In this document: in pieces, positions 65 through 55,800 of the stretch
Position numbering within the stretch: position 1 is the first letter of the stretch
How the letters are laid out: each line of letters starts with the position of its first letter
Source: Candidatus Poribacteria bacterium
Lineage (GTDB): Bacteria > Poribacteria > WGA-4E > WGA-3G
Direction: 5' to 3'
Length of the DNA stretch: 64,000 nt
Assembly: GCA_965207855.1 (NCBI GenBank)
Contig: OZ242310.1
Location: 5,128,151-5,192,150, forward strand
Translations under genes and position numbers: made by a program
The notes under the pieces: generated by a model
Told to the model about the DNA's origin: nothing
Database searches by the model: none
The model's input: only the letters and a program-made list of their open reading frames with translations

Positions 65-2695
<2,631 letters not shown>

Positions 2696-30884: not shown

Positions 30885-33614
30885 ATGAAAAAATATCTAC
30901 TGAAACTCGAAAATATAACACGTTGGTCTATATGCATCATATCGCTCATCTGTGCAGTGTTGCTACAAGTGCCAGTGCAAGCGCAGCTGACCCCTCCAGA
31001 AGAAGTCCTTGGGTTTCAGGTCGGTGCCGACTATAAAGTGGCAGGATGGCAGACGGTTTCTGATTACATGCGGCACCTCGCCGAGAACTCTGATCGGATT
31101 CTGTTAGAGACCCTCGGTAAAACGACAGAAGGCAACGATTTTCTGATGTTCCTGATTTCCGCGCCGGAAAATCTGGAGAACCTGGCACGTTATCAAGAGA
31201 TTCAGAAACAGATCGCATTGCCACGCGCGCCGATAACAGAAGACGATCGATCGGAATTAGATGCGTTGGCGCAAGCCGGTAAAGCGGTCGTGCTGATTAA
31301 CTGTAATCTGCACTCCACAGAGATTGCCTCATCGCAAATGTCAATGGAATTTGCGTATGAATTTGCGACCACGGACAGTCCACAAATTCAGAAAATTCTT
31401 GAAAATGTGATAATTCTGCTCATCCCATCCGCTAACCCTGACGGTTTGGATATTGTCGTGGATTGGTATAACCGCACGGTCAGGACGCCCTATGAAGGTT
31501 CAGAAATCCCGTGGTTGTATCATAAATACACGGGACACGATAACAATCGCGATTGGTTCATGCTCACACAGATAGAGACGCAACTCCTGACGCGCGTGCT
31601 TTACGAAGAATGGTTTCCCGAAGTCGTCTATGACGTACATGAGATGAGTTATCGCGGTCCTCGGTTTGTAATTCCCCCGTATTTTGAACCCGTTAACCCA
31701 AATATCCCACCGCTCCTACAACGGACACTTTCGCTAATTGGCGCGCAGCTGGCATTCGATTTAACAAGTGAGGGGTTTACAGGCGTGCTTTCAAGTGCTG
31801 TCTACGATACATGGTGGCACGGCGGATTTCGGACAGTCCCGTATCGCCACAATATGGTAGGGATTTTGACGGAAGCGGCACGGGTCGAGATAGCGACCCC
31901 AATCTTCCAACCGCATCACACTTTAAGAGGGTATCGTCGGGGGTTGGACGCATACACGCTTCGTACGAATTTCCCGGAACCGTGGCCCGGAGGGTGGTGG
32001 CGACTGCGAAATATTGTAGAATACGAGAAGGCGGCGGCATTGTCAATTCTTGATTTCGTTGCTGAGCATCGGGTGATGTTGAAGACTAACTTTTACAAGA
32101 TGGGACTTAACGCGAGAACAAAAGGAGAAAATGAACCGCCTCGGGCGTTTCTTATTCCAACGCAGCAGCGCGATATTCATACAACTCTTAAGATGTTAGA
32201 CATTTTGCAACGCGGGGGTGTAGAGATTCATCAAGCAAATGCCCCCTTTACTGCAGATGGTGTAGAATACCCCGCGGAAACTTACGTTGTTTTAATGTCG
32301 CAACCGTTTCGGGCGCACGCGAAGGACCTGCTTGAAGTCCAACGCTACCCGGAACGCCGTCCGTCGCCGGAATCACCACCGGAACGTCCTTATGACATCG
32401 CTGGCTGGACGCTACCTTTACAAATGGGGGTCCGAACGATTGCGGTTGTGCATCCGTTTGAAGCGGATCTAAGTCAGATACCTAACATATCGCGTTCGGA
32501 GTCGTATCCCATCACGTTTTCCCTTTTAGTGGACTCAAGTCTGGTGCCTGTATTGCCACAAGTGGAAGGGAGTCTGGAGGGTGTCCCTGAACCGAAGGGT
32601 TATCTGTTCGAGAATCGAACGAACGCTGAAGCGATTGTCCTCAACCGCCTATTTAATGCGAAATCAGAAGATAATAGCCCGAAGTATACGTTCTATCGAG
32701 CAGATCGAGAAGTAAATAGCGGCGGCAAAGTATTTCCGCGTGGGAGCATTCTGATTAGAACAACAGCACTCCCGTTACAAGAGATGGAAACAATGGAAGC
32801 ACTCGCGTCAGAGTTCGGCATCCGTATTTACGCCGATGAATCCATTGATGAAAAGACCTTAGCTCGGTCGTTTTCAAAGATAGCGGCACCGCGCCTGGGT
32901 CTCTATAAGCCGTGGACGGCAAATATGGATGAAGGGTGGACACGCTGGGTTTTAGATACGCACGAGTTCACCTACAATAGCCTCACGAATGCAGAAATTC
33001 AGGCAGGACATTTGGTGGATCGCTACGACGTGATCATTTTGCCGGATTTCGGTGCTTCCGGTATTCTCAACGGACATGCAACCGGAAAATTACCGCCGGA
33101 ATACGTCGGGGGTATTGGCACAGAAGGCCTGGCGAATTTGCGGGCATTCGTGGAGGACGGCGGCACGCTTATCTGCTTGAATCGTGCGACAGAACTCCCA
33201 TTGGAATACTTTGGGCTTGGTGAAAAAGGTATCGTCAATGTGGTCAAGAAAGCAAATCAACCGAAAGAAGACGCTTTTTTCTGTCCGGGTTCACTCTTAC
33301 GGGTCCGTATAGATACAAGGCATCCGATAGGGTATGGGTTGGATCGGGACATGGCGATCTTCTTTAAATCGGGACCGGTTTTTGACGGTGTGCGTGGGGA
33401 TGTGAAAGCTGTAGCGACGTATCCAGAATTCAATCCGTTGATGAGTGGGTGGCTTGAAGGTGAGAAACGGATTCGGCAGAAGACTGCGCTGCTGGAAACA
33501 TCGCTTGGAGATGGACGTGTGGTCTTGTTCGGTTTCAAACCGCAGCATCGCGGGCAATCCTATGGGACTTTTAAGCTGCTTTTCAATGCGATTTATTATA
33601 GTACCGTGCCGTAA
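30885..33614 (+). CDS. secreted M14-family zinc carboxypeptidase with large C-terminal extension
   Basis: 909 aa; signal peptide; M14 motifs (HSTEIAS; SANPDG; NRDW); about 500-aa C-terminal region of unknown function. Confidence 0.75.
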   Translation: MKKYLLKLENITRWSICIISLICAVLLQVPVQAQLTPPEEVLGFQVGADYKVAGWQTVSDYMRHLAENSDRILLETLGKTTEGNDFLMFLISAPENLENLARYQEIQKQIALPRAPITEDDRSELDALAQAGKAVVLINCNLHSTEIASSQMSMEFAYEFATTDSPQIQKILENVIILLIPSANPDGLDIVVDWYNRTVRTPYEGSEIPWLYHKYTGHDNNRDWFMLTQIETQLLTRVLYEEWFPEVVYDVHEMSYRGPRFVIPPYFEPVNPNIPPLLQRTLSLIGAQLAFDLTSEGFTGVLSSAVYDTWWHGGFRTVPYRHNMVGILTEAARVEIATPIFQPHHTLRGYRRGLDAYTLRTNFPEPWPGGWWRLRNIVEYEKAAALSILDFVAEHRVMLKTNFYKMGLNARTKGENEPPRAFLIPTQQRDIHTTLKMLDILQRGGVEIHQANAPFTADGVEYPAETYVVLMSQPFRAHAKDLLEVQRYPERRPSPESPPERPYDIAGWTLPLQMGVRTIAVVHPFEADLSQIPNISRSESYPITFSLLVDSSLVPVLPQVEGSLEGVPEPKGYLFENRTNAEAIVLNRLFNAKSEDNSPKYTFYRADREVNSGGKVFPRGSILIRTTALPLQEMETMEALASEFGIRIYADESIDEKTLARSFSKIAAPRLGLYKPWTANMDEGWTRWVLDTHEFTYNSLTNAEIQAGHLVDRYDVIILPDFGASGILNGHATGKLPPEYVGGIGTEGLANLRAFVEDGGTLICLNRATELPLEYFGLGEKGIVNVVKKANQPKEDAFFCPGSLLRVRIDTRHPIGYGLDRDMAIFFKSGPVFDGVRGDVKAVATYPEFNPLMSGWLEGEKRIRQKTALLETSLGDGRVVLFGFKPQHRGQSYGTFKLLFNAIYYSTVP

Positions 33615-35141: not shown

Positions 35142-36554
35142 TTAAACTTCTTCCTTCCTATAAGCGTCCAATTTGCGGTGTAGGGTTCGGACTCCAATAT
35201 CAAGAATTTTCGCCGCCTCTGTCTTATTTCCACCGGCTTCCGCGAGGGTTTTCTGGATAGCCGCGCGTTCAATTTCTGCCATTGTCATGCCGACCTTGCC
35301 AATGACTTCCTCATCATACACTGCCACGGGTTTGCTGTCTGTCCTTTTTGTCCCTTCTTGGGGTTCCACGGGATTAACGATAGGTAACATTCCATCCTGA
35401 TTGCGATTCTCAAGCACTTTCGCAATTGTCGAAAGTACCTCCAACGTTTTCCTGAGAATGTCGGCTGCGTCATCAACCTCGTTAATCTGCATCCAACTGG
35501 TATCCTCATCAGGAATTAAGGGTGGCATATCATCCCTTGCGGCAGCGGTCGGATCCAGCGATCGGATTGCAGAGAAGATCAGCCCGATAATTGTCTTGTA
35601 AACTGCTATATTTTCTGTGGTAATGGCACTGGTGGTGGGGTCCACGACTTGTAAAGAGGTTCCAGATTGATTCGGAAGCCCGACCTCTCCAGAGATTTCG
35701 GTACCGACAACCTGCGTAGGTGCGAGTTGCGTGCCTGACACTTGAACAGGCAGTGCCGTAATCTGTTCAGATTCCGAATCTATTGGAAAGTCTTTAAGTT
35801 GGAGTTCATCGGTTGTCGCCACAATGATAGCAGACTCAATAGCATTTCTGAGTTGGCGGACGTTACCGTGCCATTCTGCATTTTGGAGATAACCGAGTGC
35901 TTCGGGTGTTATGCCGGTAATTGCTTTTCCATGGTCTTCACTTAATTCGGAGATGAACGCATTAACAAAGAGTGGAATATCCTCGCGTCGGTCGCGCAGG
36001 GGTGGGATGTGGATGCGAAAGAGATTCAACCGATAATAGAGATCTTGTCTAAATTTCCTATCTTTAACGGACTTTGCGAGGTTGATATTCGTTGCGGCGA
36101 TAATTCGGACATCGACTTTTATATTTTTTTCTCCACCGAGTCGGGTGAATTCTTGCGACTCTAAGACCCGCAGAAATTTTACCTGTACTTCGGGCGACAT
36201 TTCGCCGACCTCATCAAGGAAGAGCGTCCCACCGTTTGCTTGCTCAAACACGCCGCGGCGTTGGCTTGACGCGCCTGTAAACGCGCCTCTTTCATGTCCG
36301 AAGAGTTCGCTTTGGAGGAGGTCTTGGTAAAATGCACCGCAGTTGACGGCTTTGAAGGGTCGGTCTTTACGGGGGCTACTTTCGTGTATAGCCTCGGCGA
36401 TGACATCTTTCCCAACACCCGTTTCGCCCGTAATGAGGACAGTCGCTTTCGTGGGTGCGACCTGTTCGACTTGACGCAAAACCGTCCGCATCGGTGCGGA
36501 TTCACCGATAATGCGTCGTGAACTATCGCCGATAACGAGCTTTGGAAGATCCAT
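35142..36554 (-). CDS. sigma54-dependent Fis-family activator-type AAA+ ATPase lacking an N-terminal sensor/receiver domain (PspF-like)
   Basis: Walker A GETGVGKD; sigma54-contact GAFTGA (ERGAFTGA); Walker B LFLDEVGE; C-terminal Fis-type HTH (KTEAAKILDIGVRTLHRKL); about 160-aa low-complexity linker; protein begins directly with the AAA+ domain. Confidence 0.85.
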   Translation of the reverse strand: MDLPKLVIGDSSRRIIGESAPMRTVLRQVEQVAPTKATVLITGETGVGKDVIAEAIHESSPRKDRPFKAVNCGAFYQDLLQSELFGHERGAFTGASSQRRGVFEQANGGTLFLDEVGEMSPEVQVKFLRVLESQEFTRLGGEKNIKVDVRIIAATNINLAKSVKDRKFRQDLYYRLNLFRIHIPPLRDRREDIPLFVNAFISELSEDHGKAITGITPEALGYLQNAEWHGNVRQLRNAIESAIIVATTDELQLKDFPIDSESEQITALPVQVSGTQLAPTQVVGTEISGEVGLPNQSGTSLQVVDPTTSAITTENIAVYKTIIGLIFSAIRSLDPTAAARDDMPPLIPDEDTSWMQINEVDDAADILRKTLEVLSTIAKVLENRNQDGMLPIVNPVEPQEGTKRTDSKPVAVYDEEVIGKVGMTMAEIERAAIQKTLAEAGGNKTEAAKILDIGVRTLHRKLDAYRKEEV

Positions 36555-36595
36555 CTTCTTTTGTCCTTAGCCTAACCTGATACTGCTTTTTCTTA

Positions 36596-37660
36596 TCATT
36601 TTTGCTTGAGATGCTTCTCTACGAGTAAATCAATGAGTGGTCGATAAGTTGAGTTGTGCAAATGTTCTTTGTACCAGTCCACATAGGTACCATCTTTTAG
36701 ATGTTCTTGAATCATTCGATTTTCTTCCAAAAGCGTCCATAGATTATGGGTAGCTCGATTACAAAAGCCAAAAGTTCTATTTTTTTTTAGCCCTTCCAAA
36801 CCATACTCCTGACAAGCGGGACATTGGCAATTTTCCAATTTTTTTAATTCTTGTGGATTTGGCACAGGGACCTTCCAATTGCCAAGGCTAGCCACAGAAC
36901 GATCAGCAATGCCAGGTAACTGTACAAGTCCCCGTGCGGCGCGAACGCGCCAGCCTGCTGAATCTACTGAATCCATTCCTAACAAAGACGCGATATGCAG
37001 TGTAGCTGTTCCGCCCACTCCAAAGAGATGTAAATTCTGATCAGCAAACACGTTGCGGATCTGATGAATTTTGTCCAGCAAATCTTCACTGGACATAGAT
37101 TTAGGTGCACGCAAAAGATTAGGTACAATTCCGCCAATAGCAAAAATTGGTTTTTCTCGGAGTTGTGCATTCGCTTCAAACTGACAAAGATATTTGTCTA
37201 AGTGACGACTAATATGAAGGACCGGCACATACTCATCATGAGAATACTTCTGATTAACCGCCATCGTTTGTTGAAGACACTTAAGCTGATCCTTATCGTT
37301 CATATCCGGCATAGGAATGTAGTCTTGAGGAACTGCATACCAATTAGGCTTTGCTTGTTCCACAAATTCTTCGTACTCGAGGCGTGGTACTTCAACCCCA
37401 TTTTGCGAAAATTTGAACGCGCCGTTATCCAAGTAGATCTCCATATGTTCTGGAACGCCAAGACTAGTGTGTAACCCCATTTCCATGGCGCGGCAACGGC
37501 GAGTAGGACTTTGATGAAAATACACATAGGAAACCATTACAGCACGTAACTTTTCCAAATAGTAAGGTGAATCAGGATTCCATACCAGCGGCTTAATACT
37601 GCCAAGATTCAGCCCCGCAACGATTTCCATACCTAATCTCCTCTGATTATCATAAGACAC
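36596..37660 (-). CDS. TGT-family transglycosylase-like protein, divergent second paralog (DpdA-like candidate)
   Basis: 354 aa; zinc site CQCPACQEY...THNLW parallels Tgt CTCYTCQNF...H; LDNGAFKF in place of Tgt [10 protein letters not shown]; FGVGGTATL like Tgt GVG motif; canonical tgt is already present at 537..1712. Confidence 0.7.
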   Translation of the reverse strand: MSYDNQRRLGMEIVAGLNLGSIKPLVWNPDSPYYLEKLRAVMVSYVYFHQSPTRRCRAMEMGLHTSLGVPEHMEIYLDNGAFKFSQNGVEVPRLEYEEFVEQAKPNWYAVPQDYIPMPDMNDKDQLKCLQQTMAVNQKYSHDEYVPVLHISRHLDKYLCQFEANAQLREKPIFAIGGIVPNLLRAPKSMSSEDLLDKIHQIRNVFADQNLHLFGVGGTATLHIASLLGMDSVDSAGWRVRAARGLVQLPGIADRSVASLGNWKVPVPNPQELKKLENCQCPACQEYGLEGLKKNRTFGFCNRATHNLWTLLEENRMIQEHLKDGTYVDWYKEHLHNSTYRPLIDLLVEKHLKQK

Positions 37661-37666
37661 CGGTCC

Positions 37667-39439
37667 TCACCTATTGCTGGTTTGATTGCGAACACCTTCA
37701 AGGTACTTAAAAGCATTAATTTCCTCTCGCTCCGCTTGAGAATTAGGTTTTTTCATTTTCACTAAAATGGGAAAATTTACCATCTGACCCGATAATAGTG
37801 CCTCGCCTACCTCAAGATTCGGAAGTAAGTTTGCTTCCTCCTCACCTAACGACTCAACGACCCTTTTCACAAAAATCTGATCAGCTGGGTTTACCATTCG
37901 CATGATAATATAAGAGTTGCATTGAGAAAGAGTGGTCTCGTCAAGTCGCGAAGGCCGTTGACTGATTACAACCAATCCGATGTTGAATTTCCTTCCTTCC
38001 TGAGCAATCTGCTTAGTTATGGTGATGGACTGTTGTTCGGCAGAAGAAGTACCGCGCCCAGGAACGAAATTGTGCGCTTCCTCAAGTACTAATAAAAAAG
38101 GCCATTGAAGTTTTTTGGCAACTTTGGCCTCAAATAATTCTTCCGCAATAATACTGTAAATTGTTGCCTGGAAATCTCCAGTATAGCCTGCCATGGACAC
38201 AATTGAAATTTTACCATCCTGAACTAGCTCCTTACGATCTTGAGGCATAGGTTTCGAGTCACCCGCAATCTCTTGATTGATTCTTTCCATTCTAAGAAGT
38301 TGGGATGCTGCCCTCCGAGCTCTTTTGTATATTCCCTCTAGAGTTCCAGGTATGTGTCCTTGCAAAGGTAGATTCCTCCAACAGATCTGACTTAGATACT
38401 CAAAATCGTCACGATTACCACTACGGGCATCTCTTATTGATTGAACAGCAGCATCCGCTATATTGGCAATTAGCCAAAGATCGGGTTTAATACCATTTTG
38501 ATGAATCCAATTATCATTAAGTCTATTAGCTAGCCAGTCTATCCTTTCATGTTCTTCAGCTTCGTAAAATCTCCTGGTTGCAGCAAATAAATCACCGAAT
38601 AAGGTCTCCATTGGAGGTGTTAGGTTGTATCCAAGATTGTTAACAATCTGTGCCACTGTATCTGCTTCTTGCTCAAAAATCGGGATGGTAGCGTAGTACC
38701 GATCAACCCGCTCATGATCTTGAAACTGTTCACTATCTGCTAGTCCTGAGTAATCCCCATGCGGATCGAAAACAACCATTGGATATTGTTTATCCGCCAA
38801 TTGTTCAATAATCCGCCGGGCTGCCCAACTCTTTCCAGCCCCTGTCATTGCAAGGATAGCCAAATGGCGAGTAACTATGGCGTGTCCATCCACTTTCACA
38901 TCAACCTTAGAACGGTTAGAAAGAGTAGCAATATCTAGTGCCCTAGTTTGATCCTCTGCTAAATTTCCCACTAAAATACGTTCTAGATCTTTTGAACCTG
39001 GTCCATAAGCACTAGTAGCTGGTTTAGGAGGATATCGCAAACTTTCAAGTTTACCGGATTCTTTATTTTTTGACTCACCGGACTCTTCACTTTCTAACTC
39101 AGCGGATTCTTCCTTTCCTAATTGTTCATATCCCAGTACTTGGCATACGGCTGATACCATCTCACGACTTAGAGAAAGTACAGTTTCCAGAGGATCAGTC
39201 TGTGTTTCTGCCAGTTCGTGCCCCGCTTCAGCTGGGAAGAGAGGGTTGATACGTTCTATCCTTTGGACCTTTGCCCAAACCCTTATTTCTTTTAACTCTT
39301 CGCTATCTCCCAACTCATTTAACATAGCATCCACTGCGATGATATCCTGTTCACGGATCGCTTCGGGCGTTACAGCAAGACGAAATTCTTTACTTGTACT
39401 TTCACCAACAAGTGTCCCAACGATTCTTTCTTTTTCCAT
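37667..39439 (-). CDS. HerA-like (DUF87/FtsK-HerA superfamily) ATPase
   Basis: 590 aa; Walker A LAMTGAGKS; LLVLEEAHNF Walker B; GRKFNIGLVVISQRPSRLDETTLSQCNSYIIMRMVNPADQ block characteristic of HerA/DUF87 ATPases; N-terminal barrel-like region. Confidence 0.75.
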   Translation of the reverse strand: MEKERIVGTLVGESTSKEFRLAVTPEAIREQDIIAVDAMLNELGDSEELKEIRVWAKVQRIERINPLFPAEAGHELAETQTDPLETVLSLSREMVSAVCQVLGYEQLGKEESAELESEESGESKNKESGKLESLRYPPKPATSAYGPGSKDLERILVGNLAEDQTRALDIATLSNRSKVDVKVDGHAIVTRHLAILAMTGAGKSWAARRIIEQLADKQYPMVVFDPHGDYSGLADSEQFQDHERVDRYYATIPIFEQEADTVAQIVNNLGYNLTPPMETLFGDLFAATRRFYEAEEHERIDWLANRLNDNWIHQNGIKPDLWLIANIADAAVQSIRDARSGNRDDFEYLSQICWRNLPLQGHIPGTLEGIYKRARRAASQLLRMERINQEIAGDSKPMPQDRKELVQDGKISIVSMAGYTGDFQATIYSIIAEELFEAKVAKKLQWPFLLVLEEAHNFVPGRGTSSAEQQSITITKQIAQEGRKFNIGLVVISQRPSRLDETTLSQCNSYIIMRMVNPADQIFVKRVVESLGEEEANLLPNLEVGEALLSGQMVNFPILVKMKKPNSQAEREEINAFKYLEGVRNQTSNR

Positions 39440-39441
39440 GA

Positions 39442-41001
39442 TTACCTACCTTCTGCAGTTGGCCGAAAGATCCAATCTCGGTGTTTCATATAAATCGCCT
39501 GCACCAACACCTTTCGCATATCTTCATCGCTAACTTCACCCTTCTGCAGGCTCACCCCTAGTGTATAACGAATCATTTTGTCGTACGCTTTTGTCATCCA
39601 GCTAGGCACATGGGCAAACTTATCCACGATATCCAAACCGACGGGAAATCCATAATTAGGCAAAAGACGCGAATATAAATATACACGCCTCACAGCTTCT
39701 TTCACTTGGTCTTCTCCAAGTTTAGAAAAAACCTCAACCCTAATGGGTTCAGTATTTTCGTTAACCTGAACATAGGTGCCCTTTATGGAAGGAAAACCAA
39801 ACTGCCTGCCATCTCTCAAGCAGGAAAAATCCACTTGCGAACTTTCTGATTCATTTGGAAGTCGAATTTGACCTGACCCCAAACCGATAGTCGACTTGTT
39901 TACTTTCCAAGACTCAGAATATTCTCCAGTATTAAGAAGCCAAGCCAAGAGAAGATTATCTGTATAACCTAACCTATCCATCAAATTTTTAGGAGAAGTA
40001 AGGTCAGAAAGACCAAACATGTCATTGAAATAGTTCTGTTTTCCCTTTTCACGTAGACTACGAAAAACACGTTTAAGTAATATCGCCTCAGAGAAATTCC
40101 GCGACTTTCCTCGTTCCACTACTCCCGCAATGATAGGACGAGGTTCCCTATTTAGTGCCACAGAAATCAATTTTCTATAGAGAAATGCAATCCATGACAA
40201 CGGTTCAAAAAGCCGAAGATCTGCCCATTCATCGGACCTCCCGCCAGCCATATCTGGATAAATATCAAGACGGGCTTCTTTAAGAAAATCTTCCTTCAAC
40301 TGATTTGCTTGTTCTTTATCACCCGAATAGTGTTTTAGAAACAGGTTAATATCCGCTTCAGTAAAAGGTGTATGACCTGCATAAGCGTCCATCAAATAAA
40401 CCAGCGGACCTTGGAACAATAGGACTCTTATATCTGGATTGCGGTTCAACGCTGAAAGTCCACCCAGTAACTCAGCAGTAATGCGGACAATATCTGTGAA
40501 GTCCTCCCGCTCCTTACTGCCTCCTTCAAGATCTCCGAAGACTACCGGGTAATAGCCAAAATTCTCCCGCTCTGCCAGATTCCCTTCACCGACACGTACT
40601 GCATAAGATCCTACGCGCAACAAGATAGGGACTTGAGATAATTCTGACTGACCAATTCCGCCATCAATAAAACTAACTAGTTCGTTTTGAAACTCCTCCC
40701 AAACTGTATTTTTGACTGAAAACGTCTGAAGGATAGGATTTTCTCGCGTTCCTCTATTAGTCTGATCTATAGCCTGACGCAAATGAGTTATAAAACAAGC
40801 TGTATTACGATAATAGTTATCTCGCAAATTTTCAGCTACTAACAGCGATTTTTCCATTATCTTCATCATTAACTGAGGCTGACGAAGAAGATCCTCTTGT
40901 ACATCGTTCTCGGGCAATCGCTCATTTACCTCCGATTGGTCATCTTGTGTATCTCTATCAGGAGTACCCGTATCAATAGATCTCGTATTTAATTTCACCA
41001 T
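39442..41001 (-). CDS. NurA-like nuclease candidate (HerA partner), function unproven
   Basis: Start reassigned to ATG 41001 (MVKLNTRS), preceded by a strong GGAGG RBS and 7 nt after the upstream stop; FIDGGIGQSE resembles the NurA N-terminal Asp motif; stop abuts the HerA start. Confidence 0.4.
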   Translation of the reverse strand: MVKLNTRSIDTGTPDRDTQDDQSEVNERLPENDVQEDLLRQPQLMMKIMEKSLLVAENLRDNYYRNTACFITHLRQAIDQTNRGTRENPILQTFSVKNTVWEEFQNELVSFIDGGIGQSELSQVPILLRVGSYAVRVGEGNLAERENFGYYPVVFGDLEGGSKEREDFTDIVRITAELLGGLSALNRNPDIRVLLFQGPLVYLMDAYAGHTPFTEADINLFLKHYSGDKEQANQLKEDFLKEARLDIYPDMAGGRSDEWADLRLFEPLSWIAFLYRKLISVALNREPRPIIAGVVERGKSRNFSEAILLKRVFRSLREKGKQNYFNDMFGLSDLTSPKNLMDRLGYTDNLLLAWLLNTGEYSESWKVNKSTIGLGSGQIRLPNESESSQVDFSCLRDGRQFGFPSIKGTYVQVNENTEPIRVEVFSKLGEDQVKEAVRRVYLYSRLLPNYGFPVGLDIVDKFAHVPSWMTKAYDKMIRYTLGVSLQKGEVSDEDMRKVLVQAIYMKHRDWIFRPTAEGR

Positions 41002-41008
41002 TATCCTC

Positions 41009-41812
41009 CTATCCTTTTGAACAAATTTCAACCCCAAGTTGCTGCAAAACCCGTTTTGCTTCGTTTGTGTGAAAAGCACTCACAGGTAAACCAGTTAATT
41101 GGTTAACTACCCACTTGAGAGGGACTTGTTTATTTTCTATCTGCACATACCACATCTGGTATTTGGGAATATTGCGTTCTTTTGCAAGTGCAACATTTAT
41201 TCTCTCCATTATTTGTTCGGGAGTTAGTACAATTTCAATGCCCCGAAGAGATGCCCGACCTTGTTTAACAACCTCCGTATGATTATCGGGAGGTAGTGAT
41301 ACACTCTTACGTAGCCAGCTGTGAAGTTCTGCCAATTTGCATCCCATCGATCCTTGAGAAACGGTCACATTGAGATTAGTGGAAGTTACCGATTTATACC
41401 CATCTAATACCCTCAAATAGTCTCTCCCCATGCTTATGAAAAACTCTTGGTATTGTTTGCTATTTAAAATTTGATCAAGTTGGTTCAGAGTCGGTTTTTG
41501 CAATTCTTTAACTCGTTGCGGTGTCATTCGATGATCATAGTTAGGAATTCGTTCACCATCCGAAATCAATCCAAATCTTGCTGATAAAATATACACATCA
41601 AGTGATTGTTTCCCAGATGGGTGTGCACGCAGGAACTTACTCATCACCCGAAATGGCGGTCCATCATAGCGTTTTAAGGCGGGTAGTAAACCTTGATCGG
41701 AGCGTTTCGCCCTGGAACACGAGAGAATCAGCAAGCGTAGATTTGAAGAAGTTTCTTTTTTACACATTGTATTTACTATTCCAAGTTTACTATTCCAACC
41801 CGTTATAAACAT
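41009..41812 (-). CDS. hypothetical protein with N-terminal LLILSCSRAKR motif (DUF328/YaaA-like start), operonic with NurA-like/HerA/TGT-like genes
   Basis: ORF in track; true start may be the internal Met (MCKKE, about 41767); stop 7 nt upstream of the NurA-like start. Confidence 0.5.
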   Translation of the reverse strand: MFITGWNSKLGIVNTMCKKETSSNLRLLILSCSRAKRSDQGLLPALKRYDGPPFRVMSKFLRAHPSGKQSLDVYILSARFGLISDGERIPNYDHRMTPQRVKELQKPTLNQLDQILNSKQYQEFFISMGRDYLRVLDGYKSVTSTNLNVTVSQGSMGCKLAELHSWLRKSVSLPPDNHTEVVKQGRASLRGIEIVLTPEQIMERINVALAKERNIPKYQMWYVQIENKQVPLKWVVNQLTGLPVSAFHTNEAKRVLQQLGVEICSKG

Positions 41813-41920
41813 GTCGCCCCGAAATCAACGGTATGAATGCCATATGGCATTCCCCGGGGACTTGGTGGAGGGGATGTCTATTTTTCTATAGACATATCGC
41901 CCCGCTGGGACTGTCCTCAG
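41812..41920. repeat. composite REP-like repeat (same family as 21361..21470)
   Basis: TCGCCCCGAAATCAACGGTATGAATGCCATATGGCATTCCCCGGGG ... TATAGACATATCGCCCCGCTGGGACTGTCC. Confidence 0.75.
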
Positions 41921-41977
41921 TGATATTGTAACGACTTTTTCTATGAGGTATTTCAAGTAAACAGAATCGTGGAATAA

Positions 41978-42003
41978 GTCGCGAGCACAGCTCGCTCCTA
42001 CAG
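41978..42003. repeat. GCGAGC hairpin box with CTCCTACAG tail (copy 2)
   Basis: GTCGCGAGCACAGCTCGCTCCTACAG. Confidence 0.7.
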
Positions 42004-42073: not shown

Positions 42074-42817
42074 TTATCGATTTTGTATAATCTCAAGTAA
42101 TTGTTGCGGGTCTTGTTTGACTTGCTCAAAGACCTGAAAGCCTTCACTACATGCCGCTTCACACAGTTTTCTCAAGACGACTCCCTTTATCGACCAATTC
42201 GTGGCACGGATGGCTTTTGCCAAATTTCGTCCTGTCTCAATAACGTGGACATTGGACAAACTCTCATCAACGACACGCCTATGGCTCGGTGCGAGTAGGA
42301 AAATCAGGGGTGCTGACCGTTCAATCTCAAAGACGCGTTGTAGGGATACAATATCTTCTTGCCTCAAGAGCGAGAAAACGAGGTCGTAGCGTTCAATTAA
42401 AGCAGCTATGGACTCAGGAACGCCGGTCTCGCCGAACTCTAAGACCTCAGCGTCGTGAAGGGGTGCCATATCAAAAGGAATGATAGTGTCGTCCTCGTTA
42501 ACAGGCGTTTTTCTTTCGTCAACACGACACGCATACCACGGAAAATAAAGATCGAGCGTCGTCTCACCATACCCTTCGTGTCCGCGAATTTGTTTTAATC
42601 CGTGGCGCAATTGCGTATGCATGGGACCCGTGAACATCTCTCCAGCGGGTGCGGTGTAGTCTCTATCTTCGTGATACCACCCCTCGGCATTGTAACCGCA
42701 GAGTTCTTTTATTCTCGCCTTAAGGCGTTCCGGTGAAACGGTATCCTCACGCTGAAGAGGGTTATCGGGTTTATATTTTTGTCCGGTTGTGTAAGGACTC
42801 AAGATCAATATTTTCAT
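42074..42817 (-). CDS. hypothetical protein with N-terminal MKILILSPYTTGQK motif; flanked on both sides by REP-like repeats
   Basis: 247 aa ORF; N-terminal motif related to the start of the 41009..41812 protein; no recognisable catalytic motif. Confidence 0.5.
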   Translation of the reverse strand: MKILILSPYTTGQKYKPDNPLQREDTVSPERLKARIKELCGYNAEGWYHEDRDYTAPAGEMFTGPMHTQLRHGLKQIRGHEGYGETTLDLYFPWYACRVDERKTPVNEDDTIIPFDMAPLHDAEVLEFGETGVPESIAALIERYDLVFSLLRQEDIVSLQRVFEIERSAPLIFLLAPSHRRVVDESLSNVHVIETGRNLAKAIRATNWSIKGVVLRKLCEAACSEGFQVFEQVKQDPQQLLEIIQNR

Positions 42818-52890: not shown

Positions 52891-55800
52891 GTGCAGATAC
52901 ATTTTTTGCTAAAATTTGTAGACCAGTTAACCTTAAAAGCGCGAAATCTGCTGTTAAAAACTGGACTTATCCTTATCATTGTAATCTCTGCAATGTCTGA
53001 AGTCGCTGTGAGTCGTATCGCTGAAGAAGAAACCGAATCGACAGAAGAAACGCAAACAGAGGCTACAAACCCCCGCCAACGCGCCGCCACTCCTGATACC
53101 GAGGTATCCGAGACCCCTGAGGAACATCAGCATTACACTGAATTCGGCCTGTCCAACCGCAACCCCTTTGATAGTGGTAGTGCGTCAAAACACTTCATCT
53201 GGCAGAATCGCGATCAGCAAGAATGGCAGGCACTGGATACAGCGCAAGAAACTGAAGACCCAGAGCCGACAACCGATAGCGATCGCCTCATACAACCCTA
53301 CTTAGACAGTCTCCGAAGATGGCGGTATCCCCCAGACATGACCGACCTCAGCAAACTCTACAATTGGAAACCGAAGCCGAAACGGGACGAAGAAGGTATC
53401 GCGCTCCCCATGGATTCCAATCTCAAGATTACAGGCTTACAATCCGTAACGATAGAGGCAAATAAGACTCACTACTTCGGAGAAGGGGATCTGAACCGAT
53501 ACGGCGGATACGGTTATGGTGGCGGATACGGGAGTTACTCATCGGGACTCGACTTAGGGCTCACATCGTCGTACGGTTATGAGGATTTCGGCTATAGCAG
53601 CGGCGGATTTGGGGGTGGATACGGTTCAGGGCTTGGAAGTGGATATAGCAGTTACGGAGGCGGCTATAGTAGCGGATATGGCAGCGGGTATGGGGGATAT
53701 GGTGGGTATGGGAGTGGCGGTGTTCCGCGAGCAACAGGCTTTAACCTACGACAGATTCAGCAGTTCGGTCTCCACGGTCGTGTCGGACAACGGACGCATA
53801 TTGCCGTAGATTACAGTGCCGGTGGCAGCAGTTTCGGCAGCGGTGGCTACGGCGGCTACGGTGGTGGCTATGGCGGCTACGGCGGTGGGTATGGTATAGG
53901 GGGTGCGAAGGAGCAGAAGATTAAAATCTGGTATGAAGGTACCCCGGATAGTATTATAAAAACGTTCTCTTTCGGCGACATCACACTCAGCTTACCGAAT
54001 ACCCGTTTTTTGAATATCAATCGGAACTTATTCGGGCTTGAAGGCGTTTTTGAATGGAAAAACGCACGTCTGACAGCGTTCGGTTCCCGGAGCAAGGGAA
54101 TACGCGAGGTACGGACTTTCCGAGGACAATCGCGGCGCGCAGGTGGAGGCTACGGGTACGGCCCCCGTGGCATTCAGATTCAAGACACCAACTATGTTAA
54201 AAGCAGGTTCTACCACATCCATAGAGATGAAGATGGTGCCCTTCATGAGGCATATCTGCCCATAAAAGCAGGGAGCGAAGAAATTTACATCGATGATGGT
54301 GTTGTGGGCAACAACCAAGGCGGTAAAAGGACGAGTCGCGGCTATTTCAACCCACAGTTCACCGGGCAAGACTACAATATAGACTATGAAACGGGTGAGA
54401 TAGAATTTCTCTCGCCGATTTCGGCGAGTTACACCATCGTTGTGGCGTACGAATATCTGGGTAGTGGTGGCGGCAGTGTTGGAAACCCCGAAGAAGTCTT
54501 TGTCGACGAAAACGGAGATGGGACCCTTGATGAGGAAGGGGAAGAAGTCGGCTACGTTGTGCTAAAAGAGAAGGGTTTCCGTGGGACAGAGGCGACCCAC
54601 GTCTACAGTCTCGGCAACCGAAACATTAATCCGCGCGACTTCACACTCACAATCATTCGCCAAGGACAAAGTGATACGTTCCAAACGAGTAGCGGTTCCG
54701 CCGCTTACATCGAAATTTTCGGTTTGGACCAAAACGGCGATGGTAATATCGATGCCCAGTTCATAGACTACGATAGAGGTATTCTTCGTTTTCCAACAAC
54801 CTACGGCAGCCATCCGTTTCAAATCACAGATCCGAACCACCCCTACTATGCCTACCGTGATACGCTCAGCAACAACGCCATCTATCTTGAAGGTGTCCGA
54901 ACAGATGCCCAAATCTATACGATTATCGCCGATTACGCGTATCAATCAGAGACCTACAACGTCGGCTTATTCGTCATTCCAAACAGTGAAACCGTTCGCC
55001 TCAACGGTCGTCTCCTGACCCGCGACACCGATTATATGATGCTGTATGAGGTTGGCACGCTCCGTTTTTTCAGGCAGCTCGATGAGTTTGATGAAATTGT
55101 TGTGGAATTTGAAAAGACACCGTTCGGCGGTTCATCACAACAGGCTGTCGTCGGTGCCTGGTTAGAGTACACACATAAACCGAAGCCTAAATCGGGAAGA
55201 GAACAGAGCCTTGAGGATAGATTTAACCGATTAGGCGGTATGCAAACGATGGACCCGACGCTTGGCACCGGAACCCAAGACGCTTTCGGTGAAACTTTTT
55301 CGAGAGGCAGAAGCGGTGGCTTCGGAAGGAGTGGTTTCGGCGGCGGTTTTGGACGTAGCGGATTTGGTAGCGGCTTCGGGGGCAGTGGCTTTGGGGGCGG
55401 TTACAGCAGTTACGGCGGTCTCGGCGGTAGGTCTCGGAGTTACGGCAGCTACGGCAGCAGGATGAACTACTTCAATCCTGTTTTCCAAAAAGGATTCGCG
55501 TTATCAACGGGTTATATTCTGAATACCGGCCAAAAACCGGCGGAAATACCAGATGTCAACAGCGTTCCCAACCGTTTACAAGCGGTCAACGTAAACACCA
55601 GTTTCGGCAGAGAATTTAATATTGCAGGCATCTTCAATCTATTACCGTTCATTAATATGCGCAACTTCCCACTTTCCCTCGACTTTAGTGGGGAAGCCGC
55701 TTACTCACATAATAACCCGAATAGTATAGGGGTTGCACTCATTGATAGTATGGAGGGTGCGAAGGAAGCGACAACGGTGCCCACGCTGAAATACAACTGG

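What the first reader, a model, noticed from the sequence alone, without database searches (positions are those of the whole stretch)
36596..37660. Second TGT-family paralog with intact zinc site but altered catalytic-region motif
- CQCPACQEY...THNLW mirrors the Tgt Zn site CTCYTCQNF...H.
- The nucleophile-region motif is LDNGAFKF instead of [10 protein letters not shown], and the protein is shorter (354 versus 391 aa).
- This matches how DNA-acting DpdA-type TGT homologs diverge from tRNA Tgt. The substrate could be DNA or another nucleic acid.
Basis: partly seen in the sequence, partly recalled or inferred. Interest (0 to 1): 0.6.

Follow-up and report, generated by a model that had tools for sequence, protein, structure and literature searches.

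The report
DpdA-like DNA transglycosylase with HerA–NurA
The second TGT gene is real and catalytically intact, and it most likely writes a 7-deazaguanine base into DNA (not tRNA) as part of a conserved, undescribed four-gene operon with a DpdC-like enzyme, a HerA motor and a NurA nuclease.

Summary
The ORF at 36596-37660(-) is real. Its true start is probably Met11 (ATG at 37630), giving 344 aa. It is a high-confidence TGT-fold protein (pLDDT 93).

The base-recognition Asp, the nucleophile Asp (DSVDS) and the Zn site (CxCxxC…H) are all conserved.

It fails every curated subfamily cutoff (bacterial Tgt, ArcTGT, DpdA). It shares an active-site His with both DpdAs, where tRNA enzymes have Gln. 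The window also holds a bona fide tRNA Tgt at 537-1712.

Context decides the call. The operon is DUF6884 (the DpdC family) – NurA – HerA – TGT-like. This order recurs in Cyanobacteria, Nitrospirota, other Poribacteria and many metagenome contigs.

Of 44 well-covered loci:
- 38 carry DUF6884.
- 40 carry a HerA-type module, in three architectures.
- 12 carry a YhhQ-type queuosine-precursor transporter.

One phage captured the gene together with a HerA remnant.

Best reading: a Dpd-like 7-deazaguanine DNA-modification pair, with HerA–NurA in place of DpdB and DpdD-K. I found no description of this architecture in the searchable literature. Function is inferred, not shown.

The parts
36596..37630 (-). 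TGT-superfamily, DpdA-like transglycosylase. 344 aa from Met11; the mechanical ORF extends to the GTG at 37660.
   Evidence: ORF. Start set by homologues and Shine-Dalgarno. Pfam TGT 45.6 bits against 26.3. Below the cutoff of Tgt, ArcTGT and DpdA. Model pLDDT 93.3. Best PDB fold match is ArcTGT, TM 0.75.
37409..37438 (-). IYLDNGAFKF motif holding the general acid/base Asp. D68 from Met11 = residue 78 of the 354-aa ORF, codon 37427-37429.
   Evidence: Invariant D68, G70 and near-invariant F72 in 34 diverse homologues. Aligns with ArcTGT VDSGSF, DpdA GDCGAF and Tgt TDSGGF. Role taken from PMC10164549.
37322..37324 (-). Codon of D103, the base-recognition Asp (equivalent to DpdA Asp130).
   Evidence: At least 90% conserved. 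Aligned to LDI in ArcTGT and LDH in DpdA.
37214..37216 (-). Codon of H139, an invariant His at the position of DpdA His181. It is Gln in ArcTGT, bacterial Tgt and human QTRT1.
   Evidence: Invariant. Signature table. hmmsearch alignments to 7ui4, 1iq8 and 7b2i. DpdA His181 contacts the Watson-Crick edge.
36947..36979 (-). GMDSVDSAGWR motif holding the predicted nucleophile Asp (D223, codon 36962-36964).
   Evidence: Invariant D223. Aligns with ArcTGT GVDLFDSA, DpdA GVTSIDS and Tgt GIDMFDC.
36746..36829 (-). Structural Zn site: C268-x-C270-x-x-C273 ... H295.
   Evidence: C268, C270 and H295 invariant, C273 at least 90%. Same CxCx2C...H motif as DpdA and Tgt.
37667..39439 (-). HerA-type hexameric ATPase/translocase, 590 aa. 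Its start lies 2 nt after the NurA stop.
   Evidence: Pfam DUF87 E 5.8e-24. NCBIfam HerA models E 1e-45 to 1e-32, all below the equivalog cutoffs. PADLOC HerA E 2.4e-61. Walker A (MTGAGKSW) and Walker B (LEEAH) invariant in 35 orthologues. Immediate upstream neighbour of the TGT-like gene in 38 of 72 loci.
39442..41001 (-). NurA-family nuclease. About 519 aa from the ATG at 41001; the mechanical ORF extends to 41079.
   Evidence: Pfam NurA 28.5 bits against 21. AGGAGG before the ATG at 41001. FIDGG and many other positions invariant in 32 orthologues. Syntenic in at least 26 loci.
41009..41767 (-). DUF6884 (DpdC-family, YaaA-like) protein, 252 aa from Met16, with a conserved C-terminal domain of unknown fold.
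   Evidence: PF21818 42.1 bits against 30. Weak PADLOC DpdC hit, E 2e-4. CxxxK (C17, K21) and LSAxxG (S62, G66) invariant. DpdC carries DUF6884. Model's top PDB hit is 2q07, which bears the ArcS core motif. Present in 38 of 44 well-covered loci.
42074..42817 (-). 247-aa protein of unknown family directly upstream. Whether it belongs to the system is doubtful.
   Evidence: No Pfam, NCBIfam or PADLOC hit. Found only in the Poribacteria loci L006 and L007. No profile similarity to DUF6884.

Best explanation
The gene encodes a DNA-guanine transglycosylase of a distinct, DpdA-like clade of the TGT superfamily.

**Proposed mechanism (all steps inferred):**
1. The enzyme flips a guanine out of double-stranded DNA. 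D223 attacks C1', forming a covalent enzyme-DNA intermediate, with D68 as acid/base. D103 and H139 read the base.
2. A free 7-deazaguanine precursor, most likely preQ0, is installed in place of the guanine. The precursor comes from the host queuosine pathway or from import by YhhQ.
3. The DUF6884 partner, a DpdC-family protein with an invariant Cys-x3-Lys, then acts on the nitrile of the inserted base. By analogy with DpdC this gives the amide, dADG.
4. HerA, encoded immediately upstream, supplies the ATP-driven DNA handling that DpdB provides to canonical DpdA.
5. HerA together with NurA forms the translocase-nuclease that degrades DNA lacking the mark.

The result would be a compact restriction-modification-like defence.

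**Shown here:** fold, intact catalytic and Zn residues, non-membership of the tRNA families, and the conserved gene partnership.

**Inferred:** DNA as substrate, the identity of the base, the role of HerA, and the defence function.
For: **Active site and classification**
- Catalytic residues and Zn site are invariant across 34 diverse homologues.
- His139 is shared with both DpdAs; the three tRNA enzymes have Gln. The VHLFG motif is shared with the preQ0-using ArcTGT and DpdA, against RYLMG in Tgt and QTRT1.
- A canonical Tgt already exists in the window.
- The protein fails every tRNA-enzyme cutoff.
- The NJ tree separates it from Tgt and QTRT1 at 100%. Its 99% 'DNG' clade includes a phage-type sub-clade found among FolE/QueD/QueE/QueF-like genes.

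**Gene context**
- The operon DUF6884-NurA-HerA-TGT is conserved across phyla.
- Of 44 loci with at least 4.5 kb upstream, 38 have DUF6884, 40 a HerA-type module and 12 YhhQ/Vut_1 (E 6.6e-52).
- A 25%-identical relative also sits beside NurA and HerA. Another sits beside an ArcS-core DUF5591 gene.

**DUF6884 partner**
- DpdC is a DUF6884 protein that converts dPreQ0 to dADG in DNA.
- The DUF6884 model's top structural match is 2q07, which carries the ArcS core motif PCxxxKPY.

**Phage capture**
- A phage contig carries a captured copy with a HerA remnant, as expected for a protective modification gene.
Against: - No biochemical or modification data exist for any member.
- Sequence and fold are closer to the tRNA enzyme ArcTGT than to DpdA (134 against 54 bits; TM 0.75).
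- The curated DpdA model is far below cutoff.
- No preQ0-synthesis or YhhQ gene lies in this 64-kb window.
- YhhQ is linked in only about a quarter of loci.
- In L006 the TGT-like gene is destroyed while DUF6884, NurA and HerA stay intact. That is awkward for a strict restriction-modification model.
- HerA-NurA is best known for DNA-end resection in repair.
- The DUF6884-to-ArcS structural link is weak (E 1.5e-3, TM 0.37).
- The tree is a rough NJ tree, with 59-71% support at the deep nodes.
Confidence: 0.55

Rival explanations
1. DNA repair rather than defence. HerA-NurA resects DNA ends as in archaea and Deinococcus. The TGT-like enzyme and the YaaA-like DUF6884 protein process damaged guanines, for example by exchanging an oxidised guanine for a fresh one, or mark DNA during repair.
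For: - HerA-NurA is an established end-resection machine (papers listed).
- The type III architecture adds SbcD and SbcC, recreating the archaeal Mre11-Rad50-HerA-NurA set.
- DUF6884 is related to the oxidative-stress DNA-binding protein YaaA, and YfjM was found among binders of abasic lesions.
- In Poribacteria the operon is syntenic between SecDF and a sigma-54 activator, with no obvious mobile-element borders.
Against: - Distribution across phyla is patchy, and the family is small (503 clusters at 50% identity).
- Recurrent linkage to a queuosine-precursor transporter.
- Capture by a phage.
- ImmA/IrrE peptidase and ECF sigma regulators in type III, and relatives in phage preQ0 clusters.
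- IS-mediated loss in L006.
- GC dip over the operon.
- HerA scores best against anti-phage HerA models in PADLOC.
Confidence: 0.15
2. A modification-sensing or trapping effector rather than a self-marking enzyme. The TGT-like protein attacks guanines, or phage 7-deazaguanines, in invading DNA. It creates covalent adducts or abasic sites, which HerA-NurA then convert into degradation.
For: - The TGT mechanism passes through a covalent enzyme-nucleic acid intermediate.
- Glycosylases that target 7-deazaguanine phage DNA are a recently found defence theme.
- Loss of the TGT-like gene with the nuclease genes retained (L006) is tolerated under this model.
Against: - Linkage to a precursor importer and to a DpdC/ArcS-like nitrile-modifying enzyme fits making a modified base, not only removing one.
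- A phage would gain nothing from capturing a gene that attacks its own DNA.
- The sister clade sits in phage preQ0-synthesis clusters.
Confidence: 0.15
3. It is a tRNA-modifying enzyme: a bacterial ArcTGT-like or second Tgt that inserts preQ0 or a related base into tRNA, and its neighbours are unrelated.
For: - The closest solved structure and best-scoring curated model are ArcTGT.
- Some sources name homologues '7-cyano-7-deazaguanine tRNA-ribosyltransferase'.
Against: - The score is 55.9 against a cutoff of 350.
- No C-terminal tRNA-binding or PUA domains (344 against 582 aa).
- The N-terminal roughly 45 residues of ArcTGT have no counterpart.
- Gln is replaced by His at the base-recognition position, as in DpdA.
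- A canonical Tgt is already present.
- The partnership with DNA enzymes is conserved across phyla and across 25-60% sequence identity.
Confidence: 0.05

Closest known systems
Dpd system modification module (DpdA-DpdB-DpdC of Salmonella Montevideo; PDB 7ui4)
   Same: - A TGT-fold enzyme with three conserved Asp residues, the active-site His and the CxCx2C...H Zn site.
- A DUF6884 (DpdC-family) partner encoded in the same operon.
- An ATPase encoded alongside.
- The host queuosine pathway or YhhQ as the likely source of the base.
   Different: - Only 24 bits to the curated DpdA model (cutoff 200).
- About 90 residues shorter. The large insertion that makes up 30% of DpdA is absent: 45 residues between the nucleophile Asp and the first Zn Cys, against about 110.
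- No ParB-like DpdB; HerA stands in its place.
- No DpdD-K; NurA (or c4, or an SbcCD set) stands in their place.
Archaeosine tRNA-guanine transglycosylase (ArcTGT, PDB 1iq8)
   Same: - Best sequence match (profile E 5.7e-38) and best fold match (TM 0.75).
- Same catalytic Asp residues, Zn site and VHLFG motif.
- Uses preQ0.
   Different: - No C1, C2 or PUA tRNA-binding domains and no N-terminal segment.
- His instead of Gln at the base-recognition position.
- Bacterial, with DNA-enzyme partners.
Phage DpdA subfamilies (DpdA1-4, for example Pseudomonas phage PaMx25/iggy group; Vibrio phage nt-1 DpdA2 + ArcS2)
   Same: - DNA 7-deazaguanine transglycosylases of similar size.
- Structural matches with probability 1.00.
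- The pairing of a transglycosylase with a nitrile-modifying enzyme (DpdA2 + ArcS2) parallels TGT-like + DUF6884.
   Different: - Only about 23% identity (E 2e-3) to the nearest phage record.
- PaMx25 DpdA lacks the Zn cysteines in the alignment.
- This clade is cellular, with one captured phage copy.
HerA-NurA end-resection complex, and HerA-based defence systems (Sir2-HerA, DUF4297-HerA)
   Same: - HerA with intact Walker motifs next to a NurA-family nuclease, tightly coupled.
- The best PADLOC matches are anti-phage HerA models.
   Different: - No Mre11-Rad50 in this window.
- The effector partners are NurA plus a base-exchange enzyme, an architecture not found in the searched literature.
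BREX-related 'BRC' system with HerA/FtsK, GNAT and TGT (PMC12839542)
   Same: A TGT homologue and a HerA-type translocase in one predicted defence locus, proposed to mark DNA with 7-deazaguanine.
   Different: - BRC is built on PglZ, DUF6079/BrxC, a STAND NTPase and DUF4007. Its authors state that it lacks DpdB and DpdC.
- None of those genes is present here.
- NurA and DUF6884 are present here.

Membership tests
TGT superfamily (Pfam PF01702) | Score above the gathering threshold, and the TIM-barrel TGT fold | tested here: met
   45.6 bits against 26.3. Model pLDDT 93.3; Foldseek ArcTGT E 5.9e-15, TM 0.75.
TGT superfamily (Pfam PF01702) | Three active-site Asp residues and the CxCx2C...H Zn site | tested here: met
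   D68, D223, C268, C270 and H295 invariant; D103 and C273 at least 90%.
Bacterial tRNA-Q34 Tgt (TIGR00430) | Equivalog score of at least 306.75 | tested here: not met
   18.7 bits. The window's other gene, 537-1712, scores 527.5. The two are split by 100% bootstrap.
ArcTGT / TgtA (TIGR00432) | Equivalog score of at least 350 | tested here: not met
   55.9 bits. The best of 34 family members has E 1.9e-40, also below cutoff.
ArcTGT / TgtA (TIGR00432) | C-terminal C1-C2-PUA tRNA-binding domains | tested here: not met
   The protein ends at residue 344, while ArcTGT has 582. The alignment covers ArcTGT 46-351 only.
Bacterial DpdA (NF041059; PDB 7ui4) | Equivalog score of at least 200 | tested here: not met
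   24.2 bits. PADLOC DpdA E 1.7e-6 over about 60 residues. Profile against 7ui4, E 1.3e-13.
Bacterial DpdA (NF041059; PDB 7ui4) | Active-site His181 in place of the Gln of tRNA enzymes | tested here: met
   Invariant H139 aligns with DpdA GVAH-G. ArcTGT, Tgt and QTRT1 have Q.
Bacterial DpdA (NF041059; PDB 7ui4) | Large insertion (Ins8, about 30% of the protein) between the nucleophile Asp and the Zn site | tested here: not met
   45 residues from D223 to C268 here, against about 110 from D256 to C368 in DpdA.
Bacterial DpdA (NF041059; PDB 7ui4) | Exchanges guanine in DNA for preQ0 | not testable with these tools
   Needs a guanine-exchange assay or LC-MS of DNA.
Dpd system (dpdA-K island) | DpdC (DUF6884) encoded with the transglycosylase | tested here: met
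   PF21818 42.1 bits against 30, with CxxxK and LSAxxG invariant. Present in 38 of 44 well-covered loci. DpdC = DUF6884.
Dpd system (dpdA-K island) | ParB/DndB-like ATPase DpdB, and restriction genes dpdD-K | tested here: not met
   No such hits among the operon proteins in Pfam, NCBIfam or PADLOC, nor among the recurrent neighbour clusters.
HerA-NurA pair | HerA central domain with Walker A/B, and a NurA domain, in adjacent genes | tested here: met
   DUF87 85.9 bits against 23.2; NurA 28.5 against 21. Motifs invariant. The genes are 2 nt apart. No NCBIfam HerA equivalog cutoff is reached.
BRC (BREX-related HerA/GNAT/TGT) system | PglZ, DUF6079/BrxC, STAND NTPase and DUF4007 in the locus | tested here: not met
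   None found among the window's operon proteins and immediate flanks, nor among the annotated recurrent clusters. Features as listed in PMC12839542.

The most novel reading that the evidence does not exclude
One enzyme would do both jobs of a restriction-modification system.
- On host DNA the target guanines are already replaced by a 7-deazaguanine, which a TGT cannot remove, so nothing happens.
- On invading DNA the TGT-like protein forms its covalent Asp-ribosyl intermediate at unmodified sites.
- That protein-DNA adduct, or the flipped-out site, is the signal that loads the adjacent HerA-NurA motor-nuclease to destroy the molecule.

This would be a defence system that discriminates self from non-self through base-exchange chemistry. 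It would occur in three interchangeable nuclease architectures: NurA, c4, and NurA-like + SbcCD.
Probability: 0.15. Interest if true: 0.85.

Novelty: new variant of a known kind. Interest (0 to 1): 0.62.

Why it matters
7-Deazaguanine DNA marking is known from the 11-gene Dpd islands and from phages. This finding points to a much smaller four-gene version, spread across Cyanobacteria, Chloroflexota, Planctomycetota, Nitrospirota and sponge-symbiont Poribacteria. In it a HerA-NurA motor-nuclease replaces both the DpdB ATPase and the whole DpdD-K restriction set.

If confirmed, it would:
- widen the known range of bacteria with modified guanines in their genomes;
- give a minimal, tractable model for how a transglycosylase is coupled to an ATPase on DNA;
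- add a new effector pairing to the HerA-based defence systems;
- define a DpdA-like clade that current annotation models miss or mislabel as a tRNA enzyme.

Tried and rejected
- The 34-sequence alignment was too diverse for locus searches, so I used a narrower one.
I repeated it with database homologues.
- The promoter and terminator scan gave no more sites than shuffles, so no operon boundaries are claimed from it.
- Profile-profile tests found no similarity between type I NurA and the proteins in the same slot in other architectures: c4 and c10 both under 1% probability. They are not called NurA, although c10 has a sub-threshold Pfam NurA hit.
- The upstream 247-aa protein shows no similarity to DUF6884 or to any library.
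- The phage-type sister clade (P0146) has no match in the phage genome collection, so it could not be assigned to DpdA1-4.
- The window contains no YhhQ, QueC, QueD, QueE or FolE homologue.
- Membership of Tgt, ArcTGT, curated DpdA and the BRC system was considered and rejected on tested features.
- Literature searches for TGT or deazaguanine together with HerA or NurA found no description of this architecture. Only open-access papers and preprints were searched.
Full report
**1. The observation**

A 354-codon ORF (GTG start) lies at 36596-37660 on the minus strand. All homologues begin at its residue 11, including a 100% identical 344-aa database protein. That ATG at 37630 is preceded by GGAG. 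The product is therefore most likely 344 aa.

The quoted strings are all present:
- IYLDNGAFKF (37409-37438)
- CQCPACQEY…ATHNLW (36734-36835)
- LTDSGGFQV and CTCYTCQ in the other Tgt of the window (537-1712)

That other gene is a bona fide tRNA-Q34 Tgt: TIGR00430 527.5 bits against a cutoff of 306.75. The closest named homologues come from Candidatus Poribacteria.

**2. What the protein is**

It is a TGT-superfamily protein:
- Pfam TGT 45.6 bits against 26.3
- AlphaFold model pLDDT 93.3, pTM 0.92
- Best solved-structure match is the ArcTGT catalytic domain, E 5.9e-15 and TM 0.75; bacterial Tgt gives about 0.70

In an alignment of 34 homologues down to 23% identity, these are invariant: D68, G70, H139, G166, H201, D223, C268, C270, R292, H295, N296, E303. 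D103, F72 and C273 are at least 90% conserved.

From the DpdA structure paper (PMC10164549), these positions correspond to:
- the base-recognition Asp (Asp130; D103)
- the nucleophile (Asp256; D223, in GMDSVDSAGW)
- the CxCx2C…H zinc site

The catalytic machinery is therefore intact. The "altered" motif is a Ser-to-Asn and Gly-to-Ala change around a conserved Asp, and that Asp is not the nucleophile.

**3. Which TGT it is not**

It fails every curated subfamily model:

| Model | Score (bits) | Cutoff |
|---|---|---|
| Bacterial Tgt | 18.7 | 306.75 |
| ArcTGT | 55.9 | 350 |
| DpdA | 24.2 | 200 |

None of the 34 diverse relatives does better than E 1.9e-40 against ArcTGT.

A family profile scores the solved structures as follows:

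| Structure | E-value | Bits |
|---|---|---|
| ArcTGT 1iq8 | 5.7e-38 | 134 |
| S. Montevideo DpdA 7ui4 | 1.3e-13 | 54 |
| Human QTRT1 | about 7e-10 | about 42 |
| Bacterial Tgt | about 1e-7 to 1e-6 | about 31-34 |

The alignment to ArcTGT covers residues 46-351 only. The protein has no counterpart of the ArcTGT C-terminal tRNA-binding domains or of its first 45 residues.

A rough NJ tree with 100 bootstraps shows:
- bacterial Tgt and QTRT1 split off at 100%;
- the family is monophyletic at 71%;
- the family groups with the two DpdAs, to the exclusion of ArcTGT, at only 59%.

Inside the family there are two main clades:
- A "DNG" clade (99%) holds a cellular sub-clade with the window protein (94%) and a phage-type sub-clade (100%).
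- A "DSGG" clade (97%) keeps the canonical motif.

Two signatures link the family with the DNA enzymes or with preQ0 users:
- Position 139 is His in the family and in both DpdAs (DpdA His181). It is Gln in ArcTGT, Tgt and QTRT1.
- The motif VHLFG is shared with ArcTGT and DpdA, against RYLMG in Tgt and QTRT1.

The family is small: 503 clusters at 50% identity with E ≤ 0.001, among 1.8 billion.

**4. The neighbourhood**

The gene is the last of a tightly packed minus-strand operon:
- DUF6884 protein (41009-41767)
- NurA (39442-41001)
- HerA (37667-39439)
- TGT-like (36596-37630)

DUF6884 is the family of DpdC (preprint 10.1101/2025.02.24.639861). DpdC converts dPreQ0 in DNA to dADG independently of DpdA and DpdB. 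The CxxxK and LSAxxG motifs that define DUF6884 (PMC11701544) are invariant in the window protein and its orthologues. The HerA Walker A and B motifs and the NurA FIDGG motif are invariant too.

**5. Conservation of the partnership**

One genome scan and one metagenome scan gave 86 loci, and a viral scan gave one more. The carriers include Caldilineaceae, Anaerolineae, the cyanobacterium Coleofasciculus, Nitrospiria, Gemmatales and Poribacteria.

Three architectures recur:
- **Type I:** [YhhQ]–DUF6884–NurA–HerA–TGT.
- **Type II:** [YhhQ]–DUF6884–HerA-like–c4–TGT. c4 is a 541-aa protein of no known family.
- **Type III:** DUF6884–TGT, followed or faced by:
  - an ECF sigma factor
  - an unknown protein
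  - an ImmA/IrrE peptidase
  - a sub-threshold NurA-like protein
  - a HerA-like ATPase (hhalign 94%)
  - SbcD
  - SbcC

Counts among the 44 loci with at least 4.5 kb upstream:

| Feature | Loci |
|---|---|
| Type I | 25 |
| Type II | 6 |
| Type III | 7 |
| Two types at once | 2 |
| DUF6884 present | 38 |
| Vut_1/YhhQ-family transporter (Pfam E 6.6e-52) | 12 |

The YhhQ family imports queuosine precursors; that assignment is from my own knowledge of YhhQ.

More distant relatives keep DNA-centred contexts:
- a 25%-identical one lies beside NurA and HerA;
- one lies beside a DNA methyltransferase;
- one lies beside an ArcS-core DUF5591 gene;
- a phage-type one sits in tandem duplicate among FolE, QueD, QueE and QueF-like genes on a 171-kb contig.

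**6. The DUF6884 partner**

Its model has pLDDT 81.6 and two domains. The top, weak structural match is PDB 2q07 (E 1.5e-3, probability 0.99, TM 0.37). 2q07 contains LLPCTARKPYLTSRTH and matches a DUF5591 protein. That string is the ArcS catalytic-core motif PC-X3-KPY-X2-S-X2-H given by Cui et al. (PMC10516641).

ArcS acts on the nitrile of preQ0 in nucleic acid, and phage ArcS2 with DpdA2 makes dG+ in DNA. The shared Cys-x3-Lys after the first strand (LILSCSRAKR here) fits a nitrile-directed enzyme. This is an inference from a weak match.

**7. Two natural experiments**

In the Poribacteria genome L006 the TGT-like gene is an internally deleted remnant beside two transposase genes, while DUF6884, NurA and HerA remain full-length.

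In the phage contig L087 (P22-type coat protein), a 56%-identical TGT-like gene starts with a 19-residue remnant of HerA, 16 of 19 identical to HerA 466-485. The phage copy was therefore captured from a type I operon. This fits a protective modification gene. The L006 case is awkward for a strict restriction-modification model.

**8. Mechanism proposed**

All steps below are inferred.
- The TGT-like enzyme exchanges guanine in DNA for a 7-deazaguanine precursor, most likely preQ0.
- DUF6884 converts the nitrile.
- HerA gives the ATP-dependent step that DpdB gives to DpdA.
- HerA with NurA degrades unmarked DNA.

Shown: fold, active site, non-membership of the tRNA families, and the conserved partnership.

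Rivals are a repair module, a modification-sensing or trapping effector, and a tRNA enzyme. I give them 0.15, 0.15 and 0.05.

**9. Comparison and novelty**

The system works like the Dpd modification module, but it is not a member of curated DpdA and lacks DpdB and DpdD-K. It also differs from the BREX-related BRC system. BRC has HerA and TGT but also PglZ, BrxC-like, STAND and DUF4007 proteins, and its authors state it has no DpdC (PMC12839542).

Searches combining TGT or deazaguanine with HerA or NurA found no description of this architecture. All homologues of the DUF6884 partner that carry a source name are called "hypothetical". Named homologues of the TGT-like protein are called either "hypothetical" or a tRNA enzyme.

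I rate it a new variant of a known kind, interest 0.62. The limits are the absence of any experimental data, a rough tree, and a literature search restricted to open-access text.

Noticed in passing
L006:10001-13030 (Poribacteria MAG CAXXEU010000002.1): The TGT-like gene is an internally deleted remnant (residues about 80-290 missing, premature stop). It sits next to a YhgA-like transposase and an IS605 OrfB/TnpB-like gene. DUF6884, NurA and HerA upstream remain full-length.
   Followed up: partly
L087:9151-10374 (IMG/VR UViG_3300016466_000585): A phage contig with a P22-type coat protein carries a 56%-identical TGT-like gene. Its ORF begins with a 19-residue remnant of HerA (16/19 identical to HerA 466-485), so it was captured from a HerA-TGT operon. 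A PAPS-reductase-like gene lies 1.2 kb upstream.
   Followed up: partly
L060:9224-21011 (also L021, L048, L054, L085, L086): Type III architecture: the DUF6884-TGT pair joined to an ECF sigma factor, an unknown 215-aa protein, an ImmA/IrrE peptidase, a sub-threshold NurA-like protein, a HerA-like ATPase, SbcD and SbcC. L034 and L048 carry two architectures at once.
   Followed up: partly
L001:4246-5871 (cluster c4, 14 loci): A conserved 541-aa protein with no Pfam or PADLOC family occupies the NurA slot between a HerA-like ATPase and the TGT-like gene. It shows no profile similarity to type I NurA.
   Followed up: partly
L090:5284-9959: A 171-kb phage-like contig has two tandem TGT paralogues of the sister sub-clade among FolE, PTPS/QueD, radical-SAM/QueE and QueF-like genes, with no QueC. 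The paralogue has no match in the phage genome collection.
   Followed up: partly
L093:1937-6473: A distant family member is followed by a 476-aa unknown protein and a DUF5591 (ArcS catalytic core) gene, with an M78 peptidase gene on the opposite strand just beyond. This parallels the phage DpdA2 + ArcS2 pairing.
   Followed up: no
window 35142-36554 (-): A sigma-54 activator with only the AAA+ and HTH domains (no N-terminal sensor domain) starts 41 nt downstream of the TGT-like gene on the same strand. It is syntenic in the Poribacteria loci L006 and L007 but absent from other phyla.
   Followed up: partly
window 42074-42817 (-): A 247-aa protein directly upstream of the operon has no hit in Pfam, NCBIfam or PADLOC. 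It is found only in the Poribacteria loci.
   Followed up: partly
window 36001-42000: GC content falls to 0.42-0.45 over the operon, against about 0.48-0.50 in the rest of the window, with negative GC skew.
   Followed up: no
window 37667-39439 (-), HerA residues about 105-135: An acidic, Ser/Glu-rich insert (EESAELESEESGESKNKESGKLES) in the HerA N-terminal region is not conserved among 35 orthologues.
   Followed up: no
window 52891-59634 (+): A 2247-aa ORF resembles the type IX secretion translocon SprA/Sov but scores below the curated cutoff (136.6 against 200 bits).
   Followed up: no
window 30885-33614 (+): A 909-aa secreted-looking protein has no NCBIfam match at E ≤ 1e-5.
   Followed up: no
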